Assembly (NCBI RefSeq): GCF_026571515.1
Contig: NW_026862271.1
Location: 186,001 to 250,000 of the forward strand
Direction: 5' to 3'
DNA from: Ruditapes philippinarum
Lineage: Eukaryota
Length of the DNA: 64,000 bases
The position numbers and the translations under genes were made by a program. Every line of letters begins with the position of its first letter. Within the stretch, counting starts at the first letter, position 1. Under the pieces are notes generated by a model, which was not told where the DNA came from, did no database searches, and worked only from the letters and a program-made list of their open reading frames with translations. This document shows positions 4,932 through 57,379 of the stretch, piece by piece.

Positions 4932-4995
4932 GAACCATGGACAAAATGAACCATGGACAAAATGAACCATGGACAAAATGAACCATGGACAAAAT
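4932..4995. repeat. 16-bp minisatellite (GAACCATGGACAAAAT)x4
   Basis: Four perfect tandem copies read directly. Confidence 0.95.
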
Positions 4996-6083: not shown

Positions 6084-6345
6084 AGGTCAAAGTGCAAATG
6101 AAGTTTTTTTTAATGCAATAAATGTAATCTAACTAAGGATTTCATATATAAATAGCATGAACGACTAATTTTAGATATATTATTTTCTATTCTGACATTT
6201 CAACTTCTTTTTTTAACGTCGTTGGCCTATCTGATCGTGAAATGTTTTTAAGCTGATACGGCCAATGATTTGACCTCATTTGACTGATGACATACGAATT
6301 GAAAATTTCAATCGGTTATTCTGACGAAATGTTAGGATTATAAAA
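6084..6345 (+). promoter_or_regulatory. Proximal promoter of CYP paralogue 2: DR1, CCAAT, DR4-like element, TATA box
   Basis: AGGTCA-A-AGTGCA at 6084-6096, CCAAT at 6262-6266, TGACCT-catt-TGACTG at 6271-6286, TATAAAA at 6339-6345, ATG at 6398. Confidence 0.5.
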
Positions 6346-6397
6346 GACAAACATTCATACACCTATAACCATTGGATGGTAAATAATAATAAATGCG

Positions 6398-18962: not shown

Positions 18963-21091
18963 TTACAGGATATTGCATGGCGGTTTCCACCATTTTGCGT
19001 GTTCTGTCTCTTCTTTCTTCTTTAGCAAAGCATCTTCTGAGAAGTAAAGCATTTGCCTTAAAGCAGATGAGGCGAGAATACTTATTTTGTCGTCAAGCTC
19101 GGTCTCATTTTCATAGTTCTTTATTGGAAATACATTGTTACGTGGAAGACCGAGCAGGTCTGCTATCTTCTGAACAGCCTCTTCAACATTTGTGCTTGAA
19201 CAGGCTAAGGAAATATCCTTCTTCACATCTTTACAGAGATTGTCTATTTTTGTTAGAACAACTGTTTGTACTATACCTGTTATAAATATAAAAATGAATA
19301 ATTTAGTAAGTTTATCATGTTATCTCCTATTCGGTGTTTATGTAACGGTTCAGTGTTTTCTGGTTAATCATCCTTTAATGCTTCTATGAAAATGTTGAAA
19401 TAATTCATCACTTAAAAAAAGGAAAAAACAAAAAATGTTTTGATTTGCAAAAAAACTTTTTTTTTTTGGGAAAACAAAGTTTTTAGGAAAAAAAAAATTT
19501 AAAAGGGTTTCAAAAAGAAAAAGCAAAAAGTTAGGTTTTAATAATTTGGTCCTTAACGTAACGTTTTAACCAACCCATAACAAAAAAGCCAAACCCCTTT
19601 CCCCCTTTTTTAGGTTCTGAAAAGGGCTGATTTTTGTTTAAAACCTTTTGATAAAAAAAGTTCCCCTGATGTTTTCAAACAATTTAAAAAACCCCTATGC
19701 AAAGTACTCTAAACATTGGCAGACGGGGGTTTCCGTTAATACCCCAAGAAACTGAATGCTCCCTTGAAAAATAAAAAAAAGAAAAATTAAAAAAATATTT
19801 GAAATTTTTAAAACATTTAAAACAGCAAATTTGCTTTAAAAGGTTTTGTAAAAATATTTTTTGCATATTACTTTTTGTTTTACTTCGTTTTAGTAATGTA
19901 TATTACGGATAGAATAGAAAAATAAGAATTTCCCACAAAAAAAGGCCCAAACGACAAAAAAATTGAAAATGTTGCGGCCGGGGTTTCAATGAGCCTTTGT
20001 TCAAACCCCGGTAACTTTCGAAGTTCAAGTTTCCGCCCCGTCCTATAACCGATTAAGCAGAAATTCAACATTTAAATACAAAATGGTAAAATTTTGAATT
20101 TAAAAATATCCGCAGATGTGTTCATAGGTTATCATGGAACTTTCAATGTTACTCGCTATTGCCATTCAATGAAAAGCGGCATATGGTCCCCAAGTCATAG
20201 AATGCGTGTCCCCCAAACGGGTAAACAATAGGCAGAACTTAATAAAATGGAATTTGAAAGGGGGTCAGAGGTTATGATGACTTCATATCACAGATAAGAC
20301 GTCAAAAGACAAAAGCAAAAGCAGGCAACATTTCCTAAAGATGATTCAACATTATTCAAGTAGGAATATTGGAACCACCCAAATAGAAAATGGCCAAATA
20401 GTTAAAACTTAAATATATTAAAAACACAACAAAAAATGTCGTGCCGAACGATCTATAAGGATCGGACATATAAAAACTCTGATTTAATGTACGGGAAAAC
20501 TTTAACAGCCTCCACACGGCAAAAAAAAACAAACGCTGATGTGGCGATAAAATAGAGAAAATAACAGAAATCCTACAGAGAGTCCAAAACGACAAAATTG
20601 AAAATGTTGCAGGCTCGGTTTGATTGAGTCTGTTCATGGACAGTACTGTTACGTGCAAACTACCGTCCATGCCTTTACACCGGCTTAAGCAAATTAAACA
20701 TTTAGGTATGAAATGGTAAAATTTTGAATTTAGAAATATCCGCAGACGTGTTTATACGGCGGTTATCATGGGGCCGTCAATGCGACATGTTAGTGCCATT
20801 CCATGAAAAGCGGCATATGGTCCCGAGGTAATAGAAAGCAAGTGCCCTAAACGAGTAAACAATGTGCGGAACTAAATAAAATGGAATTTTGAATGAGTAT
20901 TCTATAATCTTATAACATGTTTTTTGACAATTGCAAAGAAGCAATACCTCGTAGTGGTCTTTTATGTGTCCATCCAATAAATATTTGCAGTCATCATGAT
21001 GAAGACCATTGAGTTCTCCATTCCGCGTGTGTCACATAAACAGAAGTTCATGTCTGTACAACTTTGATCTTTTACAGCGTAGGTGGTATAA
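18963..21091 (-). pseudogene. IFI44L: IFI44-like GTPase copy A (5'-deleted pseudogene)
   Basis: The last exon 19276-18963 is intact (TKID, PIKNY, ...PCNIL*). The exon at about 19770-19600 is garbled. The DTRG exon at about 21091-20949 has a frameshift and an AG>AT acceptor change. The first three coding exons and the promoter are absent. Confidence 0.8.
19925..20895 (+). repeat. Two copies of a dispersed ~330-bp repeat in an IFI44-like intron
   Basis: The block TGAAAATGTTGCAGGCTCGGTTT...CACCGGCTTAAGC...GGCGGAACTAAATAAAATGG recurs at 50220-50530 and 50826-51150, inverted at 55070-55460, and as fragments near 2735, 35700, 55830, 56600 and 58780. Confidence 0.75.
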
Positions 21092-21382
21092 TTAAATAAT
21101 GAAGATACTTGTAACATTATTTCCGGGATTCCATTTAAGAAACACATGCGATTTAGCTAAGAGTCTAGATTCAGTATGTTATCAAATTTTTTTTTTCATT
21201 CAGTTTAACATATTTAATTTAAGTTGGAATCCCAAAGTACTGGCTTGGAAATTCCAGCAGAATACGTTATTGAGGTTACTATATCTAGGTCAAGTTTTTC
21301 TAAATTTAAACCGTTAGTCATGTTAATAACCTCTTCATTTGTACGTAAAAATTAAACTTTGTTTTTTTATCATAAATCTGCT

Positions 21383-24300
21383 ATTTATTGGCGACGCCGG
21401 TAAGCGGCGTCGTCTCTTATGGAATGCTTTTTATTTTGGCCTATGGAAGGAGCTGTTATTATTAGCAGTTAATGACATGGTGTGTTAATTAGTCTTATTT
21501 TGATTCGTAAAAATCAAGTAAACAAATATGTTGTTATATTTGTATTTAATAACTTTATGTAAAAAGCATGTGTTATCGTGATATTATTTTCACGAAATTG
21601 CAGGTTAAGTTTAAACAGCTTGTCCCTTATTTTATTGGCAATACTAAAAACCCGGATTTCGAATATCGTTGTGGTCTACATTGATGCGCGTATCCTTCAT
21701 TTATATATTTTCAAAATTTTCCTACAAGAAGAAAGTTCACCTGCAAATGAAGTATAAGAATAGGTAATGGAACTGTTGTAAACGATTATCTTTTGATTTT
21801 ATCCTTATTACGTTTATCTGTTGCGCAGAATGGTTGTTTTTTACAAAGTGTACCAGTATCCGGATGTTGAAAGCTATCCGATTTTCTGCAATTACTGCTG
21901 TCACATGGCCATCTATTTTTAAAAGAATACTGTACCATTAATTTGCATGGCTTAATAAAACTGAGCCTGCAAACATTTCATAATTTTGCTGTTTTAGGGT
22001 GGTTCTGTTGGGTTTCAGGGTTTTTCCTATTTTAAGGGGGAAGTAAAATTTCATTGTTTACCTAAATTATGTTTGTTTCTTTCTATAATGTTTTTACATT
22101 TAGGTTTGATTACTTGTACTTAACTTTTCAATAATGATATTTTTTTTGTAAAATTTTACCAAGTTGTAAGGTCATCAAAAGCATTGTTAATGTTAATTTA
22201 GATTTCATATTTATTTAATAGAAACTGGGAATTTATCAATGTTATTGCATACAGATATCTTAGTATATTTATATTGATGAGACTTATTACATGTTAATGA
22301 TTTCTGAATTTTTAAAGAGACAGTTATGTTCATTGTGATTAAAAGGGATTGAGGACCTTTTCATTCAAAGTTATAAATGTAGTCACCGAGTACTTGATTT
22401 GAAAATGTCCTTAAACTTGGATCAAGGCAAAATAAATTTTATAAAAGTCTAAAAAATCCATTTCAAATAGTTTCTTCTATTTTTTTTTTTCTAACATGTG
22501 TTTATAGTTTTGAAAAAGGAAGTTATTGTCTTATTATTTTAATGGAGGAAACAGAGGTCCTCAACCTCCAGGTCTCCTGATCAACCCCGACAACAGACAT
22601 TACATAGCGTGGGTTGTTATTACCCTTGAATAAAATTTGTTGCACTTAAATTAAATGCGGGTGATTTTTGTGCCCATGAAGACCCAACATGAGTACAAAA
22701 GTAAACACGGCGCCAGATTGAACGAAAAAATGAAAATACAACTCTACCACAAATGGTTCGTTTGTTGGCATTTTCAATGTTTTGTGCGCCCGGATTGCCC
22801 CCTTGATGCAAAATACAAATTCAGCCTTCATAAAAAAATTTCTTATCATAAAAAAAAGGTTAGTTTTTTATCTGTACAAAAAAAGATTATTGTACATGTT
22901 ATTAGCACAGTTATTTGGGCACTTTCAAATTGACCCTGTTATAAAATAATGGCACCAGCCAATAACTGTCTAAGCCCTTTTTAGTAAAATTAATCATCAA
23001 TAATAATATAAATTGTTATTTTAAATAAGACTATGAGTATGTTTAAAATTTTTTTTCTTATTTTATTAAGTTTAAGAATTAATTATCTGTTAATTTAAAA
23101 ATCTAAAAGTTCTGTCACGGTTTAGAACTGTTCACTATTTAGGGGAAGAAAAATGTGTAAGCCCGGCCAGATTAGCTTAAATGCAACTACAGCTGCGGTT
23201 ACATTATTCTGTGGGTCAACAGTTCGAGTTTTGGTCAAGCCTCAAAGTATTTCTTTCATCCTGTGGATGCATATAAGGCAGTGAGTTCAATTCACTATTG
23301 CTCTGTAACATAAGCAAAGTCAAGGACACAAATCAATATAGTGGGGAAATATATGTTGTGGTTTTAGAACTGGTTTCATTAAATTAAAGAGAAAATGGTG
23401 TAGGCCGGCCCGGATAGCTCAGTTTGGTCTTCTTAAAGTCATGGGTTTCGAGTCATGGTCAGGGCAGTTTTTGCAGTCAGGGTTTTAAGAAGTGGTTTTT
23501 CAACTGACAAATGTTTTGATTCATGTAACAGATTTGCATTTAAATTTGAAATGGACAAAGGCAGTATTGCAATGATACTTTTTAGATCTTCAAAGGGCAT
23601 GTTTCAATACAGTTTGATCCCTAAAACTGCACATGAAGAAAGTTCTTTTTTTTTTCTTTTCATTGTAAACTTCAAGCATCCGCCATATTGTACAGACATT
23701 CTTTACATGGGGGTTTAATTCTTATCTCTGAATTAACAGCAGCTGGTGGATGTGGGCTGGGGTCCTCTTCTACACTGCCCTGAAGTACCTATAGTGTACC
23801 CAACGGATGTTCATTTTGGTTCCTCTTTTATGTTTATTATTATGTCAATGGACATGTCTGCGACCCCCTAAGCAAATAAGCTTTTTATTATATGCACAGG
23901 CACGAGATCAGACCTGGGAAGAAAAAATATTGACCAGATTGAAATAAAAAAACCGTGTTTCATCCCTTAAAAAGTGTCAAAACAAAATAAAAATTGCCCT
24001 TTAAAAAACGTTAAAAATGTTTTTTAAAGGAATGGACCCCTTGGGGGGGGGAGGAAAAAATGAAGGAATTAGGGGGGGGGGGGGGTGGGGGTGGGGAAAT
24101 GGTGGGGTGGAGGGGGGGAGGGGGGGGGGAGGTGACAGATGTTGGGAGGGTTAAGGGGGGGGGGGGAGAGGAGGTGAGGGGTGTGGGGTGGGGGAGGGAG
24201 GGGGAGCAGGGAGGGTTGACGAGGGTGTGGGGGGGTGGGGGGGGGGGGGGGGGGGAAGGGCGGGTGGTGGGTGTTGGGGGGGGAGGGGGGGGGGGGGGGG

Positions 24301-27700: not shown

Positions 27701-27932
27701 TTTTATTTTTGAACTACCCTTTACATTTGATTTCATAATGGCAGGAACCATCATTGAACTATCTTAGCATGACAAGAACTATCCTTTACATTTTATTTTA
27801 TAACAGCCAAAGAGAATCCCAGATTTCATTTTGTAATTTTAAAATGACCAATGAAAACTTTTCTTATATTCAGTTCTTCCCTGTAAATTTTACAGGAAGT
27901 CAAACTGAAAACGGATCGGCCTTCGGCCAGAA
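24735..27932 (+). mobile_element. About 3.2-kb HINE/pearl-type insertion with internal cargo
   Basis: Absent from paralogous sites near 33500 and 55610. Starts AACAAG plus hairpin AGTATCTT..AAGATACT (24743-24764) and ends with hairpin GGCC-ttc-GGCC (27918-27928) plus an A run. Confidence 0.55.
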
Positions 27933-28132
27933 AAATCCCCTGTCAAGTTTGTATACAAAATGTGACTCTCATGGACCGCGTTTTTCTACTGCACTACAGC
28001 AAGAATATAATCTAAATAGTTTGAAGATGACCATTAGCAATGGCACATGCTGAGTTTGACAAAAGGTATGTCTGTGATACCAAAACATGACAATGTTTTA
28101 GCTTATTAAGAAAACCTTTTTGTACAATGGTA

Positions 28133-28220
28133 CAAACATGTTTATCAAAGTAGTATATACGATCAAGCTTCAGGCCAGAATGAAGCACTTTCAGCGTATG
28201 ATGTACCCGATAATACCATA
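28133..28220 (+). pseudogene. Sushi-His gene copy 2: only the last ~25 codons (followed by duplicated 3' flank)
   Basis: Encodes KHVYQSSIYDQASGQNEALSAYDVP followed by a 13-nt deletion. 28135-29600 closely matches 17490-18960. Confidence 0.85.
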
Positions 28221-29603
28221 TATAATTGTAAATATGACTATATCAATAAGAGTACTTCACCTTTTTGGTAACATTTTCTGTGAAGCATTTTTCCAAACAG
28301 GGTCAACATTTATCAGGTCATATTTTTTATATAGATTAACAATTTGTTTGATCCACAGGTCATTAGTATGTTTCAGTGAGGTAAATTACACAAAATTACT
28401 GGAAACTTTTGTAAATATTTAATCACTTCAACAGTAATAACTTGCAAAAACAATCATAACCCCATCATGACAATATTACAGAGAATGTAAGTTGATAATA
28501 AACAAACCTAAAGCGAACATATGAAGTGAAAGTAAAAAGACAATCGGCGGTTTTATTATTTTGGTCTGTAATTTTTAGGACCGTTGACTTTCTTTATAAA
28601 GAATTTTTCCCTTTCTTTTGGTAAAACTTTCACTTTCAAGGTGACAAAGATAATGATTCATTTATTAGGTTACAGTAATTATAGATAGATATTTATAGAA
28701 CATAAATTTTGTTTTTATTTAATCAAAATTAAAGTTATTTATTGCTTAAATTCTTTCAGAAGAGGTCCAATATATAATTCCCCAGATGTCTCTATCACTG
28801 ATCATACCTAAGTAATAATTTTTTTAATTGTGCATAGCAATCTGACAAATTTCATATATCATTCATGTTTTAAGAATATGGTACTATACTAAAAAATTCT
28901 AAAACTTACGTAGCATTTGTATTGTTTCAAAACTATTTTTATTCAATGAATCTGTTTACGCTTAACACTAACATGCATGTAATAACATGTGTCAATATGT
29001 TTTACATTTTTAATTACTGTCCTGTTTTCCATATCAATGTTGTTTTATGAAACTCGTCCTTCTTGATTGCAGTACAATTTGATTTTTCTTGAAATGTTTA
29101 TGCTCATCTTGAAGCGTGCAGCTTTAAATTATGAACCGTTACATAGTGTCATATCTTGATTTCAAGTGGATTAGTTTGTGACTAACTTGACATAACTTCC
29201 TTTTCTTCATCGTTGTACATCCAAATTTCACACTTACTGTAACAATTAGTATTTGCACACTTGTTGTTGCTTTTACATCAAGTAAGAGGTTAAAAACATC
29301 TTTTGGTGCGAGGTCAAATCTAAACTTATAACCACACTTTTGATCTATTCTGTTAAATCAAACACTGTCTCCCGACTAAATATTTCGCTGGAATTGGCGA
29401 CGACAAGGACCTACACACTATTCAGTTGTACATCTGAGTGTGAAAGTACAGCTTATGAAAGTCTAAAACATTACATAAATAAAAAGAAGATTAAGTACTA
29501 CTTAAAGTCTGTGTGGGACTGCTTCTTTAAAAATGTATGTTTGTAGTTTTGTTTTAACTTTCAAATTTAAATGTATATTAATATGAATCAGATTGGCCGC
29601 GTT

Positions 29604-32128
29604 TTACAGGATATTGCATGGCCATTTTGCATGTTCTGCCTCTTCTTTCTTCTTTTGCAAAGCATCTTCTGTGAAGTGAAGCATTTGCCTTAAAGCAGAT
29701 AAGGCGAGAATACTTATTTTGTCGTCAAGCTCGGTCTCATTTTCGTAGTTCTTCATCGGGAATACATTGTTACGTGGAAGACGTAGCAGGTCTGCTACCT
29801 TTTGAACAGCTGTTTCAACAACCGGGCTTGTAACGGCTGACGAAATATCCCTTTTCACATCTTTACACAGAGTATCAATCTTTGTAAGAACAACTGTCTG
29901 TACTATACCTGTTATAAATATTAATATGAATAATTAAGTTATTTAGTTAATTAATTTATCTCCTTTTAGATTTTTACCTAAAGGTTCAGTGTAAAGTTAA
30001 GAATTTCTATCAAATCATTCTTCTTTAATGTTTCTATGAAAATGATCAAATAATTCATTAATAAATCTACAAAAGAAAATATGTGTATGATTTGCAAATA
30101 TTTTTTTCCTACTTCAAGTACAACATATAAAAAGCTACAAAACAGAAATAAGCAACGTGTTATGAGTATGTGAATTTCATCATTAACGTTAAGTTATGTC
30201 CATCGATAACAAAACAGCCCACCTCTCTCTTTTGCAAGTTCCTGAAATGTTCTGATTTTGTGTAAATCTTCTTTTGATAGAACGTCCACAGATGTTGCAT
30301 CAATGACAAACGCTATGCAATGTACTCTATCATTGGCAGACGGCTTTATTTTAAAGTTCCACCAAGATACTGGAAGCTTCGATGAAAACTAGATAAAAGT
30401 ACATAATAGGCATAATTAAAAGTTATCGAAATGCCAATAAAAAATAAACAGCAGTTCGCTTGATGAAGGTAATAAGAAATATTTTTCTACTACACACTTA
30501 AATGTAATCTCGTTTATTTACGTGAATAGTATATACGATTATTTTATAATATTATAACTTCTTTATTGACATTCACAAAAATCAATACCTCGTAGTGGTC
30601 TTTGATTTGTCCATCCAATAAATATTTGTAGTCCATCTGATGCAGACAATATTTCTTTTCCATTCCACGTGTGTCACATAAACAGAAGCTCATGTCTGTT
30701 CCACTTTGATCTTTAAAAGTGTAGGTGGTGTACTTAAATGATGAAGATTCTTTTTAATATCTTATTTGAAACTTTAGTGATTTGATTCACGCTTTTGCGT
30801 TTTCTTGATATATATTAAGGAGTTTAATTTTGTAGTTAGATTTATTTTGGCAGATAAAATTGCTTTTATAATAACAATAGAGAAGCCTGCATAGACAAGA
30901 ATTATGACATTTGAAATTCAAAATTCTTATGCTATACACTATATGCATAACAGGTAATCGTCCAATGAAAAATGAAAACATGCGGAAAACAAAATAAAAT
31001 TTTACGTGTTCTTTGAAATTGATTTTACAGTTTCAACAGGTTATTATTAAGAAAACAATTATTTACATTTTTTGTAAGGCTATTTTCTGCGCTACCACAT
31101 GTTGCGCGCTGAGTTATACGATTCCTGAATACGGAGTCAATGGTATTATAGAAGCTGGACTTTCCTGCGCCAACAAGTCCAATCATCAATATTCGTGTCC
31201 GTGTGACTGACGGATCTGATGGTGTAAAGCTCATTATATCGCCTTTTATACCCAGTAGATTCTATATCAAAATCAAGAGAACTAAAAATTGAAAGTTAAA
31301 GTAAAACAATTACAAAAATCAAAATTTGGATTTGGCAATTTTGCTTATACCGTTGTTAGAGTTCTCGTCTCTCATGTTGTAAATGATACAATAGAACACA
31401 CATTGAATTCCATGGTTCTGTGTTAACTTTTTTGACAATATTTCTTGCCATTTGATGAAAATTTACAAAAGGGTTTAATTAGCAAATAAGGAACAAAAAG
31501 GTGTTATCTGTCAAAATGATTGAATAATAAGCGCGAAAGTCAATGTATAAATCTTATTTTTTCTAGATCTATTAATGAATATTTTGACATTTTTTCTCTT
31601 TCTGTTTATATTAATCACTAAGATATGATTGCATTTTTACACAACTACGTTTTAAAATGGTAAGAAAAGCATAATCTTGATTATCATGTTCTGTTTCAAA
31701 ATGTACTGTTTTATATACATTATCTAACTATCATAATATATTCGTTTCTTTTATATTTTGTGGTTTCGTAAGCCAGGAATATGTACCTCTCTACTCCAAT
31801 TGGTTGGTCTCCATTGTGTAGGCACTTCACTTATGTGTCTCTGATCACCTAAATGAAATAGATAATTACTTTGTTTAAACATTTTCCTAACGAACGCGAA
31901 TGCTTAATAATGTTTCATGTGATACATGAAAAGGTTTTTAGTTAAAAAGATATTTACACTTTTAACGTGTCAACTATTGAATGCATAAACACAGCTTTAA
32001 ATATCTTATTTTATCATACCAGCATAAATAAAATGTCCATTCATTTGACCATTCGACGGTATAATGACTCCATTGGGCATTGCTTGAACAGGAACTTTGT
32101 GTCCATTATTATTGTAAACAGTCATCAT
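29604..32128 (-). CDS. IFI44L: IFI44/IFI44L-like P-loop GTPase copy B, intact, 326 aa, no TLDc domain, C-terminal CaaX (CNIL)
   Basis: Exons 32128-32020, 31848-31787, 31261-31067, 30732-30589, 30388-30223 and 29908-29604 sum to 981 nt with an open frame. G1 GLVGAGKSS, G3 DTRG, G4 TKID; IFI44-type motifs RILMIG, LLDG, VHCIAFVIDA, PMKNYENE. Confidence 0.9.
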
Positions 32129-32399
32129 CTTTCTATATTTGTTATTGGATTTCTCCTGGAAAAATAAACATAAATGATGCGATTCATGCTTAGTAATAAG
32201 TTAGGTGTTTTGAGATCTTATTATGTAGATAATTGTTTCATTTCTGCAATGTTTGTTTACATTTTTATTCAATTTTCTGTTTCATACAAAGATAAACTGA
32301 AAGAAGGCGTTAAGAAGATTGTAACATTATTTCCCTAGGATTCCATTTCCATTTAAGAAGCACATGCGTATTTAGATAAGAGTCTATATCAATCATTTT

Positions 32400-33035
32400 T
32401 ATTTGTTTTGGGTCGTCAGACCAAACAAATAATGGTAGCGAAATTTCAGACTCTAATGCTGTTAATCGCAAATGCCGAAAGTAGTCCGCTTTTTTGAAGC
32501 GGTTACTTCCCTTTATATGTACACTAACGCCGAAAAATTCAGGGGAGATCACTGCGTAAAGATGGTCAAATGACAGACGCATTAATTTCAAGCAAAATAA
32601 TTCCCGAATGGTCGAAGATTTCTAATATTGTTTTATTCTTTATAGATATACATGCTTATAGTAAGCTCCATGATTATTACATCTGTGTTAAACAACATTT
32701 AGCGTCGTTACAAACCCTATTTTAGTATAATATGGTTTTCTTCAGGCCGTTAACATATAAATTCACCATGGCCGAGGGTTTTGCGCGCTTGCTTAGGAAG
32801 CGAGAGGTCTGGAGTTCAAATCCCAATTAAGGCAGCTCATTTTTTTAAAATTGTTTAAGTCAAATAAACATTGGATTGAATATCAGTGTTGCAATTAGTC
32901 TTATAGCCAATTTACTCTACAATTAAAACGCTGGAAAGCATTGGTGGCACTATACAAAAGCAAATTGGTTTATAATCTCACAACCTGCACCTTTCTTACA
33001 TTCTGAAACCCAAACAAATTCAGCGCCTTCTGTGC
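32400..33035. mobile_element. Insertion specific to copy B intron 1, containing a degenerate tRNA-like head (about 32770-32835)
   Basis: Flanks are contiguous in copies A (about 21170-21200) and C (about 54410-54440); GGAGTTCAAATCCC B-box-like motif. Confidence 0.45.
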
Positions 33036-34202
33036 TTTTATTTCATTTAGTTTTACGTATTTAGTTTTAGTTGGAATCCCAAAGTTATGGCCAAAATAAG
33101 TTATTGAGGTTATTATATCTATTTCAAGTTGTTATAAATTTAAACAGTTAGTCATGTTTATAACCTCTTAATGTGCACGTAAATAATTTCACTTTGTTTT
33201 TTTTTTATCAAAAACCTGCCATGAAATATTATACTTAATTATGTTTTAAATATGTGTTCGATCGAACAGTATCGTCTGCTTGTATAAACTACAAAAAACG
33301 TACTATGGGATTCTAAGATTTCTTAACTTAATCCATTACGTAATTGGTGATTGATCGTCTGCTTTTACATGCATTTTCTGAAAATCGTTCTAGTTTTGCT
33401 TATATTGCTACCCTATGTATTGGAAATGCTATATAGGAAATAAATAAGCTTTGAGCATTTTTTGCAGATAGAAGAAGAATATTAATATATATATATATTT
33501 TTAAATCCCAAACAAGTTTGTATTCAAATAGTGACTGTCGTGGACCGGCCTTTTTCTACAGCACTACAGCAAGAGTATAATCCAAATAGTTTGAAGATGA
33601 CCATTAACAATGACATATGCTGATTTTGACAAAAGTTATGTCTGTGATACCAAAACATGGCAATGCAAGGCGACATTACAGAACGCAGCCCCCGACACTT
33701 TCCAGTCCGACATGTAAACAGTAACAAACCTTGACTCAAAATACATGATTTAAGTAAATTTACAGTCGACAACTTGGTAATGTTGCGAGTTTCAGACAAA
33801 GGAGGATTTATCACGATCTGTTTTTATCCAGTGCCTACTTCAGTGAGGACAGCAGACCTTGAAACTTTATATAACTTTGATATAGCAGATACAACGGGGC
33901 TTACCATTCTTTGAAAATTTGGTCAATATCAAACAAGTTGTTTTGGGTTAAAAAATTGTTGATACGTAGTCGTTAACGACAGATGACACACATCGATTGA
34001 ATACAGATATCAGTATATCATAAAAGACCACATTTCAGTACTACATGCGCAAACAAAGATTAAAAATATATTATCACTTGACTCAGTTGATCGTCCAATA
34101 AAATAACGATTTATTTTAACATGATAAAATTGATATTGAAGTTTAAGAATAGTTTATTTTAATTGAGTTTTAGCTTTCTTCTGAGTGATAACGAAACATT
34201 CT

Positions 34203-34389
34203 ACTCACTGTTGGTTCTTTTTATTCCAATCTTACTGTATCAAAAGCAAATATCGCATTATCTATGAAGTAAGTGTTAACGTGTTAAAAGATATTTCACA
34301 ATGTCTTAAATTCCCGTTCAAATTTCCATTGGTAATGAGCCAAGGTATAAATAGTTTCCCAAAGAAATTCCTAAAACGAAACCGAAAGT
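34203..34389 (-). promoter_or_regulatory. Putative promoter and non-coding exon 1 of IFI44-like copy B, with ISRE
   Basis: ISRE GAAACCGAAAGT at 34378-34389; TATA-like TATTTATA on the - strand at 34353-34346; GTGAGT splice donor on the - strand at 34208-34203. All three are conserved in the copy C paralogue. Confidence 0.7.
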
Positions 34390-34809
34390 ATACTTTCTTA
34401 ACATCATGTCTTTTATTTTTTTAAACATATTTATGTCACTCGCAACTTCTCGTTGCTTTACGTCGAACTTAAGATAAGGCTCGAACACAATGGCCTTAGC
34501 TTCGCTACAAACTCTTATTTGGCTAAATACTCGTAATACCGTTGGTAAGGTAGTAAAGAATCGCATCTTCTTGATCATTTCCGTCAGATTATTATGAATA
34601 ATAGCCGAGGTGTTCCGATAGAGGTATTGGCGCTGTGGTTCAAGAGAACAACCCTCGTATATCGTTATCGGCTTAAAGATGTAAAAAGAAAAAAGTACAT
34701 TTTTCTTGTCTTTTTGGAAATTACATATTTCGGTTTGGTTATGGTTATATGTCATTTGATATTCTAAAATTCACTATGACTTTCTATTAAAGTATAACGG
34801 AAATATAAA

Positions 34810-34985
34810 CAAATAGTTTGGATTATTTCATGTGAAAAAGCTATCCATTTTGGCTTAAGGATCGCCGGTAGCCCATTCATGCCTGAAATAATGCACGGAC
34901 AGGCATCTGAGGTCTCTCTCCACCATTAAAGCTGAAAAGTCGCAATATGATCTTAACACCGTTGGTGCGTATAAGTAAATAAAAC
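34810..34985 (+). mobile_element. 5'-truncated SINE (resembles the bivalve RUDI/V-type SINE body, from recollection)
   Basis: TTCATGTGA...GAAATAATGCACGG...CTCCACCATTAAAGCTGAAAAGTCGC...ATATGA block; duplicated remnant at 57800-57950. Confidence 0.55.
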
Positions 34986-36074
34986 ATTCCTTTCTCATTC
35001 TACTTTACAGATAATTTGTTTACACCAAATATATCTTGGTAGAAATACTGATTGAGGCAAGGTCATTCATACCATATTATTTTACAACAGAAGTTTAAAA
35101 AAATATATTAGTTTACTTTTCACGAAAACCTTGTTACAATCATGAATGCTTAAGACTGAATGCAATGTTTATTCAATCCGCATCAAATCAATTAATATGG
35201 AGATAACGTACCTAATACTTTACAATAAAAGGCCCCATGCTAACATTAATGTCATTATACATACATAATTACGGATATCAGCTAATTTATTTTTGAAAAA
35301 TAAAATGCTTATGCAATGTTCTCAATATACGCAATATAAATAAAGACACAATAAAAATATCATTTTCAGTGTGTAATTCATAATGCACGCACACGCTTTT
35401 AAAGCTCGAGTAATTAGTTGTGGTTTTAATCTATACTAGATCTATATAAAAACATTTAAAAGAAATGTATAGAAAATGGGGTAGTTATGAAAAAAAAACT
35501 TTTTTTTATCTTTTTAACATCACAATATGACCAATTTTTGCACATACTATATTTTGACAATTGATACTAACACTAGATCGCTCACCAGACCAAAGGACAT
35601 GAATTATGTATATGCTGTATAGGTCTTCCAGAGAGTGTTATCTTCAAAATTTCACCGGTGCTATGGAGCAAGGACTGTAGTTTGCACATGTCAGTACCAC
35701 CCACGAACGAGCTCAATTGAACCGAGCCTGCAACTTTTTCAATTTTGCCATTTTGGACTTTCTTTAGGGATATTTATTTTCTCTATTTTACTAAGGTCCA
35801 TAAGATTAGTATTAAGACTACAAACCAGACATGTACGTGTGGTGCATTTTAGTTTCTCGGGAGAAAATATTTTTATCATACTGTCCAAGTGAATGTAAAA
35901 AGTTACACCATGGTAGGGTAAACGTTGAATTCTAGATCATAATTTAAATTTAAACCAACTTAATAATATTCTTCTAGTCAAAACAACACACAAAATATCT
36001 AGGTTTTAATATTGGGGTTTCGGACAAGAAGTTTCAAAAAGGCTTTCCAATATGAGTCAATCAAAAACCATGTG

Positions 36075-37098
36075 ATTTTCCCGGGGGGGGGGGGGGGCAA
36101 TTTTGAAACTTGGCTCATGACCACCTATGCAGATTTTGGAGAGGTCTATAAGAACGCAATAACTATCTTAGCTCTCGTGTTTGTCTTTAGTAACTCTTCC
36201 AAACTCATACGCAATCTGCTTGTCCGATTATTTATAATGCACAAGACATAACTGAATTCACGAACTATTTGATAAGGAAAAAATCAGTGCCTCAATCTGC
36301 TTTTTGCCAGTTATTATGGTAAATTCTTCGAGAAAACACTTATGGGTCTTTGTTTTAAGTTCACTAGAGAATTGTTATTGTTTTATTGCAGTACCGTTTT
36401 GACAGAAGATAAACACAACATACTTTAATTCAAATCTGTTTACTTTTTTTCTTTCATTTCATAAAAATATCTAGCAAGTAACATAACTGACCATTAATCT
36501 TGGTCAATATAAAATATGTCAAATTAAACAAGTGGTATAATTACACAAATCTTAACAAATGTGTCAATGTAAATTTCGTAAACCAGATTTTCCCGGAGGG
36601 GGGGGGGGGCAATTTTGAAACTTGGCTAATGACCACCTATGCAGATTTTGGAGAGGTCTATAAGAACGCAATAACTATCTTAGCTCTCGTGTTTGTCTTT
36701 AGTAACTCTTCCAAACTCATACGCAATCTGCTTGTCCGATTATTTATAATGCACAAGATATTACTAATTTACGAACTATTTGATAAGGAAAATATTAGTG
36801 CTCAATCTGCTTTTTGCTAGTTATTATGGTAAATTCTTCGAGAAAACACTTAAGGGTCTTCGTTTTAAGTTCACTAGAGAATTGTTATTGTTTTATTGCA
36901 GTACCGTTTTGACAGAAGATAAACACAACATACTTTAATGCAAATCTGTTTCCTTTATTTCTTTCATTTCATAAAAAATATCTAAAAGTAACATAACTGA
37001 CCATTTATCTTGGTCAATATAAAATATATTACATTTAACAACAGGTATAATTACACAAATCTTTACAAATGTGTCAATGTAAATTTCGTAAACCAGAT
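36075..37098. repeat. Local tandem duplication, about 510-bp unit x2, of the ABCG5-like 3' end/UTR
   Basis: 36075-36588 and 36586-37098 are near-identical; only a single unit occurs at 59160-59590. Confidence 0.9.
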
Positions 37099-41149: not shown

Positions 41150-43326
41150 CAATAACTTTAATTAAAAAAAGCAACCATAACGAACAATTAGAGTCCATCA
41201 AGTAAAAGATGTGTGTCAATTTTTAAAACAAGTTGCATGACAAGTTCAATATTGTTTACAAAATACACAATCTAAAAATGTAAACAGTGGCTTCTTTGTC
41301 TGACATTTTATCTAACATAAGTCAGCCTCTGGTTATCTATTTTAAATTGATATATCTTAAACTTTATCGTGTTGTCTTATCCTTCAATATAACTTATCAG
41401 CATATGAATATGGATCTAGCAAAATATTTTTTTGCCTTTTTTTTCTAATATTATATTCTGTTTTTCAAATTTATGTACATATAAAACGATAAAAGGCAAC
41501 TTAAATGAGACGTTTTATGACCGGATATAAAAGAGGAAGTATAGAATAACAAATAATTTTTATACGTTTTTTTTGTATTTAGCAAAAGAGAAGTAGAGTT
41601 TTATTGATGGATAGGAGAAATTTGTTTTCTAATATGGGTCACAATTACAATTTGTTAAACATTTGTTGCTGCTTCTATTTGATATTTATATAATTATAAA
41701 TGTATCTATTGAATAGAAAGTAACAAAATAACATACCTATTAAGCTTTTGAATATATAACATGTATAAGGACACCACTTACCTTTTTTGTTCTAGATTGT
41801 AAACCACTCAGTTCACACAGACAAATTCCACCTGTGTTTACAAAAGCAACTGTGATAATTTCTGCCAAGTTATCTTAGCAAGAGGGCCATGATGGCCCTG
41901 AAATCGCTCACCTGTATATAGGCCCCTGGGCAAAGGCCTATTTTAAACCAGGGGCTTTTATTTGAACGAAACTGGTAGACACCCATTAGAAGATGTTTCA
42001 TGATAAATATCTAAGCTCTTACTCTTATAAGTTTTATAAGAATATTTTTAATGTTTTGACTATATACATATAGGGAAAAACAATGACCCTCACGGAGGGG
42101 CGAATTTTGACCGCAGGGCTTTTATGTGAACAAACATTGTAGACACTCACTTAAAGATTTTCATGCTTAGTATCTAAACTCTAGCTCTTAGGGTTTTTAA
42201 AAAAAAAACAATTTAAGTTTTTACTATACACATATAAGCAAAATCAATAACGCCCGGGGCGGGGCCAATTTTTACCCAAGGACCCTTATTTGAACAAACT
42301 TGGCAGACACCCATTAGAAGATGTTTTACGATAAATATCTTAGCTCTAACTCTTTGGGGTTTTTAAAAAGAACATTTTTTAAAGTTTTTACCATATACAT
42401 AAAGGGAAAAATAATGACCCCTTGGGACGGGGCCAATTTTTACCCCAGGGCTTTTATTTGAACAATCTTGGTAGACACTGACTAGATAATGTTTCATGCC
42501 AAATATTTAAGCTCTAGCTCTTTTTGTTTTCTAAAAGAAGATATTAAGTGTTTTCTTTGAACAATATTTAAAGTTGACTACCAAAGAAACATTCATGTGA
42601 AGTTTGGATGAAATTAGCTTAGCGGTTTATGAGGAGATGTCGTTTTAAGTAAAAGTTAGACTTTTTATTATGAAATGAAGAGCTTTAAACATTTGACTTT
42701 TAAGTGTGACCTTGACCTTGGGATAACAACCCAATTTTCGCCCTCTGCACATCGTCTCATTATGGTGATTACTTCTGCCAATTTATTTTTTTAAAAATTT
42801 CAGTAGTTTAAATGTAATAGAGCGGTAACAAAATATAGACTTCTATTATGAAATGAAGAGCTTTTAAAATTTGACCTTGACCTTGGGGGTAGCAACCCAA
42901 TTATTTCGCTCTGCACATCGTCTCATTATAGTGAGTACTTGTGCCAATTTATTTCAAAAAATTTTCAGTGGTTTAAAATTTATGGAGCGGACACAAACGT
43001 GTTACGGACGGACAGACGGACAGAAGGACGGACTGACAGACGGATGCCATTCCTATAATCCCCTTTCCGGTATGCAGAAGGGGATGAACAAAGGCATTAC
43101 ACATGTTGAGGGTCATATAAACATCATGGAGACAGACCTGTACACAAACATCATAAGGTAACTATAGACATCACAACAATCAAACTGGTCAAAAAGGCCA
43201 TCATCAAGACCATCACGAAGAGAATGGTCATTATCAATATAATTACAGTGATCATCATGATGGATTTCATAGTCAATATGAGAAACATGCAGGACCTTAA
43301 TACCTTAATAAGAGTCATGATAAAAT
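41150..43326 (+). pseudogene. Sushi-His gene copy 3 (disrupted)
   Basis: 41150-41845 matches intron 1 and the start of the Sushi exon (DCKPLSSHRQIPPVFTK). 43087-43326 matches the start of the His tail with stops. The Sushi core and TM segment are replaced by a transposon; the 3' flank resumes at about 46030. Confidence 0.85.
41850..43088 (+). mobile_element. Pearl/HINE-type composite element(s) with internal satellite arrays
   Basis: 5' hairpin AGGGCCAT-G-ATGGCCCT (41883-41899), four ~165-bp monomers (about 41936-42550), two ~177-bp monomers (about 42660-43000), (ACGG/ACAG)n at 43004-43044 and 3' hairpin ATCCCCTT...AAGGGGAT (43058-43085). Confidence 0.75.
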
Positions 43327-46025: not shown

Positions 46026-47344
46026 TATAACAACAGTAACCACTATAACAATATTAAAAAGAATGGAAGTTGATAATAAACAAACCTTAAGTAAACATAT
46101 TTAGGAAAAGTAAAAAGACAATCTGTGGTTTGTTAATTTTTGGTCTGTAGTTTCTTGGACAATTGACTTTCTTCAAAAAGAATTTTCCCCATGCTTTTGG
46201 TAAAAAGTTCACTTACAAGATGACAAAAAGAATGATTGATTTATTAAGTTACTGTAATTATATAGATATTTATAGAACAAAATTTGTTTTTACTTAATCA
46301 GAAATGAATTTCATTATTACTTATAGTCTTTCAGAGGAGGACCAAATTTATATTTTCCAAATGGTTTGATTACTGATCATACCTACGAAATAATGTTTCA
46401 GCTGTGAATATGAATATGGCAGTTTTCATATATTATTAATGTTTTCACAATATGGTATAAAAAGTATGTAATGAAATTCTAAAACTAAAGAAGCAATGAC
46501 ATTGTTTATAATTTCAAAACCATTTTTATTTGATAAATCCGTTTACGCTAAACCATAATATAAAAACAGGTGTCAATAGCTGCTTTTCAATTTCAGTCAC
46601 AGCCAATATTCTCATATGATTCTCGTCATTCTCGATCATTGTTGGTAGAACAGTAAGTGCTAAAGATTGTTTGTAAATCAAGCCAATGGTAGATGCAACA
46701 AGAGATGTTGCATTGTTCATGATGTCTCTGAACCTGAATCAGCTTTCTATAAATCCTTCCTTATGAGCTTTCATCTTCACTTTAACATTGACAAAGCAAT
46801 GTAAAACAAATTGTTAAAAAAAAAAGTCACGCTGTTGAAATATGGTGACAAATACTGCCAAAATCAGACATTCATCGCATATAACATGTAAATTATTACT
46901 TGAATCTTGTTTTTTTTTTTTTTTTTTTTTAGAATCTCAGTACATTTTTCTTAAATTTGATTTTTCTTGAAATATTTTCGATCATCTAGAAGCATGCTTT
47001 CGATTATGAACCGTTAAATCTTTTCTTGTCATATCTTCTTTTCAGGCCCCACATGGGGTAACCCCATTTATTCGCTTCGTCACATAACCATTTGTGGGTC
47101 AAAGCACATCCCACAGTGGTTTTAACAAATTATCTTTTATCATGCATAGGAACGGGGTATACCAGATGTCAAACTAATATTTATTATTATAGTGAAAGGA
47201 CAGTTATTTACAAAAAAGACAATCAAAAAGAAAAAACACACACACACAAAAAAAACACAAGGAAACAAGGACGACACATGCTTTCACACTCACAATCATA
47301 ACCGTATTTTAAAAAAAAAGTTTAAAAAGCATCACCAATATATG

Positions 47345-48790: not shown

Positions 48791-49265
48791 AATTTATTGC
48801 CATATCTTCATTTCAAGTGTACAAGTAAGTGATTACGTTATTAACATAACTTCCATATCTCCGTCGTTGTACATCTAAAATTCACATTTAATGTAACAAT
48901 TAGTATTTGCACATTTGTTGTTTTTTACATCAAGTAAACTTTCAAAATATCTCTTGGTGCGAGGTTTAATCTAAACTTAAAACAAAACTTTTAATAAATT
49001 CTTTTCATCAAACACTGTCTTCCGACTTGGTATTTAGCTTGACTTGGCGACGATTACTTTTATCTTGTTCAAGCTTCTACACACTATTCAGTTTTATTTC
49101 AGAGTGTGAAAGTATAGCTTATGAAAGTCTAAAACATTACATAAGTAAAAAGAAGATTAAGTACTACTTAAAGTTTGTGTGAGACTGATTCTTAAATATG
49201 TATCTTTGTAGTTTTTTTTTTTAACTTTCATAACGTTTATTTATGTGAATCAGGTTGGATGCGTT

Positions 49266-52200
49266 TTAAAGGATATTGCATGGCTGTTTCGACCATTTTG
49301 CGTGTTCTGCTTCTTCTTTCTTCTTTTGCAAAGCATCTTCCGTGAAAAAGAGCATTTGCTTCAAAGCAGCTAAGGCAAGAATACTTATTTTGTCGTCCAG
49401 CTCTGTCTCATTTTCGTAGTTCTTTACTGGGAAGACATTGTTACGTGGAAGACCTAGCAGGTCTGCTACCTTCTGAACAGCCTCTTCAACATTTGTGCTC
49501 GAACAGGCTAACGAAATATCCTTCTTCACATCTTTACAGAGATTATCTATATTTGTTAGAACAACTGTCTGCAATATACCTGTTATAAATATAAAAATGA
49601 ATAATTTACTAAGTTTATCATTTTATCTCCTATTCGGTGTTTATGTAACGGTTAAGTGTTTTCTGGTTAATCATCCTTTAATGTTTCTATGAAAATGTTG
49701 AAATAATTAATCAATTAATAATTAAAAAAGGAAAATACAAGATATGTGTTTGATTTGCAAAATACTTTTTCTTTTGGGTAAATCATTTTTTTCTAATAAG
49801 CAAATTATAAGGTTACAAAACAAAAATAAGCAAAATGTTAGGAGTAAGTAATTTGCAGCATTAACGTTACGTTTTAACCATCGATAACAAAATAGCACAC
49901 CTCTCTCCTTTGCAAGTTTCTGAAATGTTCTGATTTTGTGTAAATCCTTTTCTGATAAAACGTCCACTGATGTTGCATCAATGACAAACGCTATGCAATG
50001 TACTCTATCATTGGCAGACGGTGTTCTGTTAAAATACCACCAAGAAACTGAATGCTCCGTTGAAAACTAAATAAAAAGACAAAATTAAAAGATATCGAAA
50101 TGTTAAAGCATTTTACAAACAACACTTAGTTTGAAAAGGGTAATTACAAATATTATATGCTATATAATTTTGCTATGTTATCTCGTTGATTTTGTATATG
50201 ATAGAATAAAAAAAATTAGATTCCCCACAGAAAGTCCAAAACGACAAAATTGAAAATGTTGCAGGCTCGGTTTCATGAGCCTGTTCATTGACGGTGCTGT
50301 CGCGTTCCTAGAACCGGCTTAAGCAGAATTCATCATTTAAATACGAAATGGTTAAATTTTGAATTAAGAAATATCCACAGATGTGTTCATATGGCGGTTA
50401 TCATGGAACCGTCAATGTGAGTGGCTTATACCATTCCATGGAAAGTGGCGAATGGTCCCCAATTTATAGAACGCGTGTGCCCTAAACGAGTAAACAATAG
50501 GCGGAACTTAATAAAATTGAATTTTGAAAGGGGATCAGAGGTTATGAAGACTGCACATCACAGATAAGACGTCAAAAAACAAAGTTAAAAAACATGCAAC
50601 AAACCTAAGGATAATTCAACATTATTCAAGTAGGAATATTGGAACAACCCAAATAGAAAATGGCCAAATAGTTAAAACTTAAATATATTATAAACACAAC
50701 AAAAATGTCTTGCTGAAAAATCTATAAGGATCAGACATCTCTGATTGAATGTACGGCGCAACTTTTAACAACCTCCACAAGACAAAAACAACGTTGATGT
50801 GGCGATAAAATAGAGACAATAAGATTCCCTACAGAAAGTCCAATACGACAAAATTGAAAATGTTGCAGGCTCGGTTTGATTGAGCCTGTTCATGGACGAT
50901 ACTGTCACGTGCAAACTACCGTCCATGCCCCTAGCACCGGCTTAAGCAGAATTCAACATTTTAGTATGCAATGGTAAAATTTTGAATTTAGAAATATCCG
51001 CAGATTTGTTTATACGGCGGTTATTATAGGCCTTTAATGTGACACGTTAGTGCCATTCCATGAAAAGCGGCATATGGTCCCCAAGTAATAGAAAGCTTGT
51101 GCCCTAATCGAGTAAACAATGGGCGGAACTAAATAAAATGGATTTTTGAAAGAGCATTCTATAATCTTATAACACGTATTTTCCCAATTACAAGGTAGCA
51201 ATACCTCGTAGTGGTCTTTAATGTATCCATCCAATAAGTATTATAGAAGCTGGACTTTCCCGCGCCAACAAGTCCAATCATCAATATCCGTGTTCGCGTG
51301 ACTAACGGATCTTCTTTTGGTGTAAACCTCATTAAATCGTCTTTTATACACTATAGATGCTATTACAAAATCAAGAGAAATATAATTTTGAAAGTTATGA
51401 CAATTACAAAAATCAACATTTGGCAATTTTGATTATACCGTTGTTAGAGTTCTAAACGTACATACTGTAAATGTTAAGAAGAACATTGAATTACAAGATT
51501 CTGTGTTCACATTTTGACATGTCTTGTCTCTCTCTTTCAAGGTTTGATGAAACTTCACATAGCGTTTGATTAACAAATAAGGTACATAAAGGTGTTATCC
51601 GTCAAAATGTTTGAAAAATAAGCGCGAAAGTAAATGCATCAATTTCAAATTTTCTAGATCTATGAATGAATGTTTTGACAAGTTTTCTCTTTCTGTAAGT
51701 ATTGATCATTACGACATGCTTGCATTTTTCCGTTACCACGTTTTAAAATGGTTAGAAAAGCATAAGCTTCATTATTAGTTTCCCTTTTTAAAATGCGTTG
51801 TTGTGTCGCCTTGTCCGGGCCATTTCTCCTAAACTATTAAAAGCTATGGACTTGAAACTTCATATGATGATTGATCTCATTAAGAAGAATTGCAGTTCAC
51901 AAAACCGGTACATTTTTGAGTTAATGTCCTTTGTAAATTTTCCTACTTTGTCTTGGCCATTTTTCCTAAACTTTAAAAGCTATGGATTTGCAACTTCATA
52001 GGATGATAGATCACAACAAGAAAAAGAGCAGTGCACAAGAACCGGTACTCTGCACGTATGTTTTTGAGTAATTGCCCTTTGTTAATTTTCATCATTTATA
52101 TTTGTCCGGACCACTTCTCCTAAACTATAAAAGCTATGGACTTGAAAATTCATAGGATGAGAGATCTCATTAAGAAAAAGTGCAGTGCACAAAAACTGAT

Positions 52201-53044
52201 ACTCTGCGCTTCTTAATTTTTGAGTTGTTGCTCTTTGATAATTATAATACTTTATTTTTGTACCGGCCATTTCACCTAAACAATAAAAGCTATGGACTTG
52301 AAAATCCATAGGATGAGAGATCTCACTGAGAAGAAGAGCAGTGCATATATAAGAACCGGCATTATGTACTTCATGATTTAAGAATTATTGCCCTTTGTTA
52401 ATTAATATACTTTATTTTTGTCCGGGTCAATTCTCCAACACAAAAAGCTATTCAATCTACATCAATCCTGATGTAACAGTGTTACAATCAGTTTAAATGC
52501 TTCTAAAGTTCAGGTCCATGTATATTGTAAGAATGGTATTTATATTTAACCTATATTTAAGAAGAAAATGCCGATGTGACAGCTTTACTGTTTTTTTTTC
52601 GCAAGGCGACACATCCGACTCGCAGAGTTCTAGTTTGATATACATTATCTAATAAAAACAAACTATTCTATTTTTGATATATTGCGGTTTTTAAGCAAAA
52701 TGTATGTACTTCTCTACTCCATTTGGTTGGCCTCCATTGTTTCGGCATTTCACGAATGCATATCTGATCACCTAAATGAAACAGAGGACTACTTTTAAAA
52801 ACACATTGTTAATTGGCACGATTGCTTTATGATGTTTAATGTGATACACGAAAAGTTTAGTTTACGAAATTATTGACATTTTTACTTGTCAGCTACGGAA
52901 TGCATAAACACCTATTTAAGTGTCTAATTGTATCATACCAGCATAAATAACATGTCCATTCATTTGTCCATTCGATGGTATAAAGACGCCATTGGGCATT
53001 GATTGAACAGGAACACAGTCCCCATCATTTTTGTACGAGGTCAT
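49266..53044 (-). pseudogene. IFI44L: IFI44-like GTPase copy C (pseudogene)
   Basis: Exons 53044-52939, 52771-52710, fused 51359-51205, 50066-49901 and 49579-49266. In-frame TAG at 51353-51351; a deletion joins the G1 exon to the end of the G3 exon out of frame; G4 reads TNID; ends ...PCNIL*. Confidence 0.88.
51799..52635 (-). mobile_element. HINE/pearl-type element with ~155-bp internal tandem monomers
   Basis: Absent from the copy B intron (about 31720). Subterminal inverted repeat TGTGTCGCCTTG (51802-51813) / CAAGGCGACACA (52602-52613); 4-5 monomers containing AAAGCTATGGACTTGAAA. Confidence 0.75.
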
Positions 53045-53133
53045 CACCTTTGTTTTTTATCCTGAAAAAGAAAATAAATGAAGGAAATCATGCTTAGTGA
53101 TTAAGTTAGGTGTTTTAATCATATTCTGTAGAT

Positions 53134-57224: not shown

Positions 57225-57379
57225 ACTCACTGTTGGTTCTTTTTATTCCAATGTTTCTGAATCAAAAGCAAATCTAGCTTTATCTATTAATCTAATCTAG
57301 TGTTTCCGTGTTAAAGTCCCATTGGTTATTAGCCAAGGTATAAATAGTCAAACAAAAATCCGAAAACGAAATCGAAACT
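57225..57379 (-). promoter_or_regulatory. Paralogous ISRE/TATA-like/donor block upstream of IFI44-like copy C
   Basis: GAAAACGAAATCGAAACT at 57362-57379, TATAAATA (+ reading) at 57339-57346, ACTCAC (GTGAGT on -) at 57225-57230. Confidence 0.65.

What the first reader, a model, noticed from the sequence alone, without database searches (positions are those of the whole stretch)
34203..34389. Conserved ISRE, TATA-like box and non-coding exon upstream of the IFI44-like gene in an invertebrate
Seen: AAAACGAAACCGAAAGT (B) and GAAAACGAAATCGAAACT (C, 57362-57379) keep every GAAA core spacing while spacer bases differ. They lie 15-25 bp from a TATTTATA and 130-170 bp from a perfect GTGAGT donor facing the gene's first acceptor (32155). 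Known: GAAANNGAAA(C/G)T is the IRF/ISGF3 element of vertebrate ISGs; molluscs have IRFs but no recognised canonical interferon. Inference: a direct IRF target, i.e. ISG-style wiring. Caveat: the TATA reads canonically (TATAAATA) on the opposite strand.
Basis: partly seen in the sequence, partly recalled or inferred. Interest (0 to 1): 0.75.

Follow-up and report, generated by a model that had tools for sequence, protein, structure and literature searches.

The report
Interferon-type switch in clam leader exon
A clam gene related to our antiviral gene IFI44 starts with a spliced, non-coding exon that contains a DNA word matching the vertebrate interferon-response element; the same word sits in front of many of its relatives and of the antiviral gene viperin, so it likely lets the clam's IRF proteins switch these genes on, though binding and induction are untested.

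Summary
The motifs are at the stated places. The predicted splice 34209→32155 is real in one RNA run's contig, and the exon is non-coding. The proposed layout is wrong: contigs of two runs pass through the 'TATA' and the ISRE (to 34561 and 34390). Both lie inside exon 1, and the start is not near 34315. Both runs read G at 34372, giving three GAAA repeats as in copy C. B/C conservation proves little: 183 of 285 18-mers match as well. Support comes from elsewhere in the genome. The core AAA[GC]CGAAAGT lies within 7 kb upstream of 14 of 30 other IFI44-like genes against 0 of 21 P450 controls (6 unrelated contexts, 0.66 expected; word chosen partly after looking). It also lies about 160 bp before the viperin ATG and 1.6 kb before one RIG-I-like gene. 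The clam has four IRF loci. Best reading: a start-proximal IRF element, likely functional (0.62), untested. Precedents exist (shrimp Vago4 5'UTR ISRE; oyster IRF1 on the IFNLP promoter). This scan noted similar elements before on other clam and Aplysia DNA.

The parts
34372..34389 (+). IRF-E/ISRE-like element of copy B; its GAAA face is on the + strand, antisense to the gene. The assembly has T at 34372 and contigs of two RNA runs have G, which gives three GAAA repeats at 6-bp spacing
34209..34561 (-). Non-coding first exon of IFI44-like copy B. The 5' end is not mapped: X1's contig reaches 34561, X2's ends at 34390. It contains the element and five short upstream ORFs
34203..34208 (-). Splice donor GTGAGT of intron 1
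32156..34208 (-). Intron 1 (2053 bases, GT..AG); it holds a repeat at about 32400-33050 that draws many unrelated reads
34346..34353 (+).
34428..34435 (-). CATAAATA, a gene-strand TATA-like word that would place a start near 34400, close to where X2's contig ends. Candidate only; it is also inside X1's contig
   Evidence: inference
34221..34223 (-). In-frame TAA upstream of the donor, which makes exon 1 non-coding
29604..32155 (-). Coding exons 2-7 of IFI44-like copy B (32155-32020 with ATG at 32128, 31848-31787, 31261-31067, 30732-30589, 30388-30223, 29908-29604); 326 aa P-loop GTPase-like protein without TLDc domain
57362..57379 (+). Duplicate element of copy C, three perfect GAAA repeats; one of 55 strict matches in the genome
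57225..57230 (-). Duplicate donor of copy C; splicing not tested
49269..53061 (-). IFI44-like copy C; in this assembly the match jumps from mid exon 4 to late exon 5 near 51240, so it looks broken
18966..21093 (-). IFI44-like copy A; no match to exons 2-4 and no duplicate of the leader exon in the window

Best explanation
This is an ISRE/IRF-E-type element inside the spliced non-coding first exon of a clam IFI44-like gene, at or just behind the transcription start, which likely binds one of the clam's IRF proteins and would raise transcription during the antiviral (dsRNA/STING-type) response. Shown: the element, the exon, the splice, the transcription through the element, four IRF loci with the DNA-contact motif, and enrichment of the same core before other IFI44-like genes, viperin and one RIG-I-like gene. 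Inferred: that IRFs bind it (two or three tandem GAAA half-sites, working in either orientation), that it acts as DNA rather than RNA, that the main start is near 34400 with some starts further upstream, and that this gene is inducible.
For: Splice and exon. Three-repeat allele in 2 of 2 contig runs, matching copy C. AAA[GC]CGAAAGT within 7 kb upstream of 14 of 30 other IFI44-like genes against 0 of 21 P450 genes (Fisher 1.1e-4, genes not independent). These fall in 6 mutually unrelated, non-repeat contexts against 0.66 sites expected from the genome rate of 4727 per 1.41 Gb (Poisson 7e-5), and 0 of 2000 shuffled CG-containing decoys reached 6 of 7 lineage groups. A recalled textbook consensus fixed before the count, GAAASYGAAASY, gives 9 of 30 against 0 of 21, with 12 sites against about 1.5 expected. 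Viperin carries AAACCGAAAGT about 160 bp before its ATG, and the one RIG-I-like gene whose first exon was mapped carries it about 1.6 kb upstream, both in unique sequence. Four IRF loci have RCALNS, RCALNS, RCALHS or RCALTK in the recognition helix (contact residues as in PMC7819612, passages). Oyster IRFs activate ISRE reporters (PMC5557890, passages). Oyster IFI44 falls when IFNLP is knocked down (PMC8218723, passages). Shrimp IRF binds an ISRE in the Vago4 5'UTR (PMC4602278, passages).
Against: No binding, induction or start-site data for this gene. B/C conservation is no better than the flanks. The 11-mer was chosen partly after seeing the IFI44 set. 16 of 30 IFI44-like upstream regions, the intact neighbour copy D among them, lack the 11-mer. 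0 of 4 IRF upstream regions and 6 of 7 RIG-I-like regions lack it (first exons unmapped in those six). Of the 55 strict three-repeat sites, 16 sit in one dispersed repeat and few of the rest have a recognisable antiviral neighbour, so such words also arise without an obvious target. One IFI44 site and the looser viperin 12-mer are repeat-borne. In a published clam poly(I:C) table one IFI44-like gene goes up and another goes down (PMC7430831, passage); which genes these are was not determined.
Confidence: 0.62

Rival explanations
1. The B/C element is a chance GAAA-rich word carried along in a recent segmental duplication. The exon is real but the element does nothing.
For: The 12-mer occurs every 48.6 kb. 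B and C are one event and no better conserved than their flanks. Copy C looks broken yet keeps the best element, and intact copy D has no such promoter within 12 kb. The assembly allele has lost the first G.
Against: A three-repeat site falls in a given 500 bp with probability about 1.5e-4, a textbook-consensus site about 0.004. The same core recurs before unrelated IFI44-like promoters and viperin but not before P450s.
Confidence: 0.17
2. The element is a real IRF site but sets basal, haemocyte-type or repressed expression (IRF1/IRF2- or IRF8-like) rather than virus-induced expression.
For: IRF1 drives constitutive defence genes, and the same is speculated for invertebrates (PMC7819612, passages). 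Oyster IRF1/IRF8 act in haemocyte proliferation (PMC13524488, passages). A site behind the start could also repress (inference).
Against: Oyster IFI44 and viperin are poly(I:C)/IFNLP-responsive (PMC8218723; PMC5869526). Raw reads of two runs show only low depth on the gene (about 0-3 per direction), which fits an inducible or tissue-restricted gene.
Confidence: 0.15
3. The + strand TATAAATA and the element form a promoter for an antisense or divergent + strand transcript that starts near 34375, and IFI44 is driven from further upstream.
For: The TATA is canonical only on the + strand and is kept in B and C. In X21, depth over 34404-35165 (about 9) exceeds depth over the IFI44 exons.
Against: X21 is unstranded and part of that stretch is a repeat. 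TATAAATA occurs 0.56 times per kb in this window. The block is conserved as a whole.
Confidence: 0.06

Closest known systems
Shrimp Vago4 5'UTR ISRE bound by LvIRF (PMC4602278; passages seen)
   Same: Invertebrate gene with an ISRE-like site in the 5' untranslated region, and an IRF family member in the genome
   Different: Vago4 is a secreted cytokine, and binding and activation were shown. Here the gene is an intracellular effector homologue and nothing is shown at the bench
Oyster CgIRF1/CgIRF8 - ISRE - CgIFNLP axis, with IFI44, Mx and viperin downstream (PMC13524488, PMC8218723, PMC5557890; passages seen)
   Same: Mollusc IRFs bind or activate ISRE; IFI44 behaves as an induced gene
   Different: In the passages seen, those tests used human reporters or the IFNLP promoter. 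Here native candidate sites lie at the effector genes themselves, in a clam
Vertebrate ISRE / IRF-E promoters of interferon-stimulated genes (PMC7819612, PMC10287828; passages seen)
   Same: Two or more GAAA repeats at 6-bp spacing near the start or in the 5'UTR
   Different: No ISGF3 or type I interferon is shown in clam, and there is no strict GAS or kB site beside the B element. The clam core ends in GAAAGT with a CG spacer more often than in the GAAACT recalled for vertebrate ISREs
IFI44 / IFI44L family
   Same: P-loop GTPase-like domain; named IFI44-like by NCBI; 31% identical to a scallop IFI44-like protein; nearest Atlas clusters are chordate IFI44-like
   Different: No TLDc domain; part of a family with 75 last-exon matches in this genome; orthology to human IFI44 not tested

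Membership tests
ISRE / IRF-E cis-element | Two or more GAAA half-sites at 6-bp spacing | tested here: met
   two in the assembly allele, three in the RNA alleles and in copy C
ISRE / IRF-E cis-element | Lies at the promoter or 5'UTR of the gene | tested here: met
   inside the spliced first exon; the exact start is unmapped
ISRE / IRF-E cis-element | Kept by selection more than the flanking DNA | tested here: inconclusive
   B/C: not above flanks; across paralogous promoters the core recurs above controls
ISRE / IRF-E cis-element | A cognate IRF exists in the organism | tested here: met
   four loci, two with all four contact residues (RCxxNS)
ISRE / IRF-E cis-element | Bound by IRF or ISGF3 and needed for induction | not testable with these tools
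   needs EMSA, ChIP or reporter assays
TATA-box core promoter (as proposed) | TATA on the gene strand about 30 bp before the start | tested here: not met
   contigs of 2 of 2 runs read through 34346-34353; it is canonical only on the opposite strand
Non-coding first exon | Spliced to the first coding exon at GT..AG | tested here: met
   joint 32154/34208 in X1
Non-coding first exon | No reading frame continuing into the coding sequence | tested here: met
Interferon-stimulated gene (functional class) | Induced by dsRNA, virus or an interferon-like signal | not testable with these tools
   run conditions are coded; the published clam table cannot be mapped to this gene
IFI44 family | C-terminal GTPase-like domain homologous to IFI44 | tested here: met
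   motifs GLVGAGKS, DTRG and TKID in the translation
IFI44 family | N-terminal TLDc domain of full-length members | tested here: not met
   the alignment to TLDc-bearing P0004 starts at its residue 187; short chordate IFI44-like clusters exist

The most novel reading that the evidence does not exclude
The clam has a native IRF regulon marked by one preferred word, AAA[GC]CGAAAGT. The word has been kept or gained again in at least seven unrelated IFI44-family promoters, viperin and a RIG-I-like sensor, often beside a STAT-like TTCGGAAA at the single-copy genes. IRFs would then switch on antiviral effectors directly, without a canonical interferon, and the word would let one read the mollusc antiviral gene set off the genome.
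Probability: 0.4. Interest if true: 0.7.

Novelty: new member of a known kind. Interest (0 to 1): 0.47.

Why it matters
Molluscs mount an interferon-like response without a recognised interferon. In the passages read here, tests of their IRFs used human reporters or one cytokine promoter. Native sites at effector genes give concrete probes for asking whether IRFs drive those genes directly, which a review raises as speculation for invertebrates (PMC7819612). The single element alone is a modest finding; the family-wide signature is the useful part.

Tried and rejected
(1) B/C conservation as evidence of selection: rejected. (2) The proposed TATA and start near 34315: rejected. (3) Start mapping from raw reads: X21 and X23 had too little depth and no place where many molecules begin. 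(4) Reading targets off the 55 strict three-repeat sites: 300 ORFs were scanned, of 1422 of at least 60 aa, from 48 of 53 loci. They gave transposons, lectins, Kelch/F-box, MIEAP, C1q, Mab-21, B-box and WWE, with no clear antiviral enrichment and no valid control. The reversed-pattern control overlaps the element itself and was dropped. (5) Copy D: no B-like promoter in 12 kb upstream. (6) GAS or kB beside the B element: no strict match. STAT-like words lie near 5 of 22 core sites against 0.14 expected per site, so there is no general pairing. (7) CpG density gives no clear promoter signal. (8) C444, an IFI44-like gene with the exact B core about 1.3 kb upstream, was fetched after its site was seen in a listing. 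It is left out of the main counts (30 genes) but is inside the 31-gene counts. (9) Literature searches listed no paper on a native ISRE at a bivalve IFI44 gene. The library lacks most subscription journals, so this is weak; supplements were not read. (10) No other mollusc genome was available for a cross-species comparison.

Full report
Observation. Copy B has AAAACGAAACCGAAAGT at 34373-34389 and copy C has GAAAACGAAATCGAAACT at 57362-57379. Each is 15-19 bp from a TATAAATA that is canonical only on the + strand, and 130-165 bp from a GTGAGT donor on the minus strand. The gene is on the minus strand. Six coding exons give 326 aa, identical to a protein that NCBI names interferon-induced protein 44-like of Ruditapes philippinarum. 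It aligns to the C-terminal part of a scallop IFI44-like protein (31%, E 5e-42), lacks the TLDc domain, and its nearest Atlas clusters are chordate IFI44-like. Of four tandem copies, A lacks its front exons and C has an internal deletion in this assembly, while B and D (beyond the window) are intact.

RNA evidence. Four runs were laid on 27800-35400. The X1 contig joins 34209 to 32155 across a GT..AG intron and continues through the coding exons, so the predicted leader exon is real. An in-frame TAA at 34223-34221 and five ATGs that all stop inside the exon make it non-coding. The same contig runs to 34561 and X2's runs to 34390, so both pass through the proposed TATA and the element. The start is therefore not near 34315, and the element lies inside exon 1. 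X2's depth drops from 24 to 3 beyond about 34400. A gene-strand CATAAATA at 34435-34428 would put a start near 34400, but contigs cannot show starts and X1 extends further. Both contig runs read G at 34372, which restores a third GAAA repeat as in copy C. Raw reads (X21, X23) were too thin to map starts. X1 and X2 are marked by the tool as RNA by guess; their intron-skipping joints show they contain spliced RNA. Copy C was not examined with RNA.

Chance. GAAANNGAAAST has 3 window matches against 0.70 expected and occurs once per 48.6 kb in the genome. B and C descend from one duplication with 79% identity; 183 of 285 ungapped 18-mers match at 15/18 or better, so the element is no better kept than its flanks. 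The three-repeat form is rare (425 in 1.41 Gb; 55 in a stricter form). But 16 of those 55 sit in one dispersed repeat, and a Pfam scan of 300 ORFs around them showed no clear antiviral enrichment.

Independent test in the same genome. The last exon has 75 matches. For 30 genes other than A, B and C, a first coding exon could be mapped and up to 7 kb upstream read (197 kb); the rest were not fetched or had no mappable first exon. The control was 21 P450 genes (137 kb). The core of the B element, AAA[GC]CGAAAGT, chosen partly after looking, is at 14 of 30 against 0 of 21. It falls in six mutually unrelated non-repeat contexts plus one repeat-borne context that was dropped, against 0.66 expected, and none of 2000 shuffled decoys did as well. 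None of these contexts aligns to the B promoter. Outside the IFI44 set the same core lies about 160 bp before the viperin ATG and about 1.6 kb before the one RIG-I-like gene whose first exon was mapped. It is absent from 4 of 4 IRF upstream regions (3 of them have a looser 12-mer), from 6 other RIG-I-like regions with unmapped starts, and from 16 of the 30 IFI44-like regions, copy D among them.

Mechanism. The genome has four IRF loci, whose recognition helices read RCALNS, RCALNS, RCALHS and RCALTK; the first two keep all four GAAA-contact residues described for IRF1 (PMC7819612, passages). The most likely working is that IRFs activated by dsRNA or STING-type sensing bind the two or three tandem half-sites at the start of the gene, on either strand, and raise transcription. 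The element, exon, splice, IRFs and enrichment are shown. Binding, induction and the exact start are inferred. I put this at 0.62, against chance carriage (0.17), a basal or repressive IRF site (0.15) and an antisense promoter (0.06).

Comparison with what is known. Passages read show that shrimp IRF binds an ISRE in the Vago4 5'UTR (PMC4602278). Oyster IRFs activate human ISRE reporters (PMC5557890) and the IFNLP promoter (PMC13524488). Oyster IFI44 and viperin depend on IFNLP (PMC8218723) and oyster ISGs respond to poly(I:C) (PMC5869526). Vertebrate ISRE analyses cover promoter and 5'UTR together (PMC10287828). In clam, one IFI44-like gene rises and another falls after poly(I:C) (PMC7430831, one table passage). 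Searches listed no paper on native ISREs at bivalve IFI44 genes, but most subscription journals are missing and no supplements were read. Earlier notes of this scan report similar elements at other clam IFI44-like and cGAS-like genes, at Aplysia PARP14 and at MIEAP-like genes. They are unchecked leads and not counted as support; one may concern a locus also counted here.

Verdict. A real leader exon containing a probable IRF element, with the promoter layout corrected. It is a new member of a known kind. Interest 0.47, carried mostly by the family-wide signature, which makes direct IRF control of mollusc antiviral effectors testable.

Noticed in passing
L042, L048, L049, L055, L065, L069, L070, L071, L074, L075, L077, L082, L089, L091, L092 (about position 5000 of most): One dispersed repeat carries a three-repeat ISRE-like word and accounts for 16 of the 55 strict genome matches. 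Copies lie within 5 kb of a Mab-21/cGAS-like gene, two B-box genes and a WWE gene. It may be a transposon-borne IRF site; no control was run.
   Followed up: partly
G000:C8570:107768-107940 (L101): The single viperin gene has AAACCGAAAGT about 160 bp before its ATG, flanked by three TTCGGAAA STAT-like words; the cleanest candidate composite promoter seen.
   Followed up: partly
G000:C12642:460453 (L181): A full-length RIG-I-like gene has the same core with TTCGGAAA 8 bp away, about 1.6 kb before its first coding exon.
   Followed up: partly
G000:C2247:49775-49804 (L033): A TLDc-type IFI44-like gene has two exact copies of GAAACCGAAAGT 18 bp apart, 2.7 kb upstream.
   Followed up: partly
L052:2371-2670 and 4991: A MIEAP-domain exon lies 2.3 kb behind a three-repeat element on the opposite strand; gene orientation was not worked out.
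   Followed up: no
window 17487-21384, 28134-36093, 46029-59181; G000:C10758:252547-257943: Four tandem TLDc-less IFI44-like copies: A lacks its front exons, C has an internal deletion, B and D are intact. The duplicated unit also carries pieces of an ABC-transporter-like gene (name recalled from ORF motifs, not tested).
   Followed up: partly
window 16358-17579: A predicted membrane protein with a sushi-like exon and a long His/Asp/Gly-rich tail; a partial copy lies at about 41182-43326.
   Followed up: no
window 1-9300: Two tandem cytochrome P450 genes on the + strand, used as part of the control set.
   Followed up: partly
L086:2590-8086: A three-repeat element sits between a divergent pair of genes, an F-box/TRAF-zinc-finger gene and a BTB-Kelch gene.
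   Followed up: no
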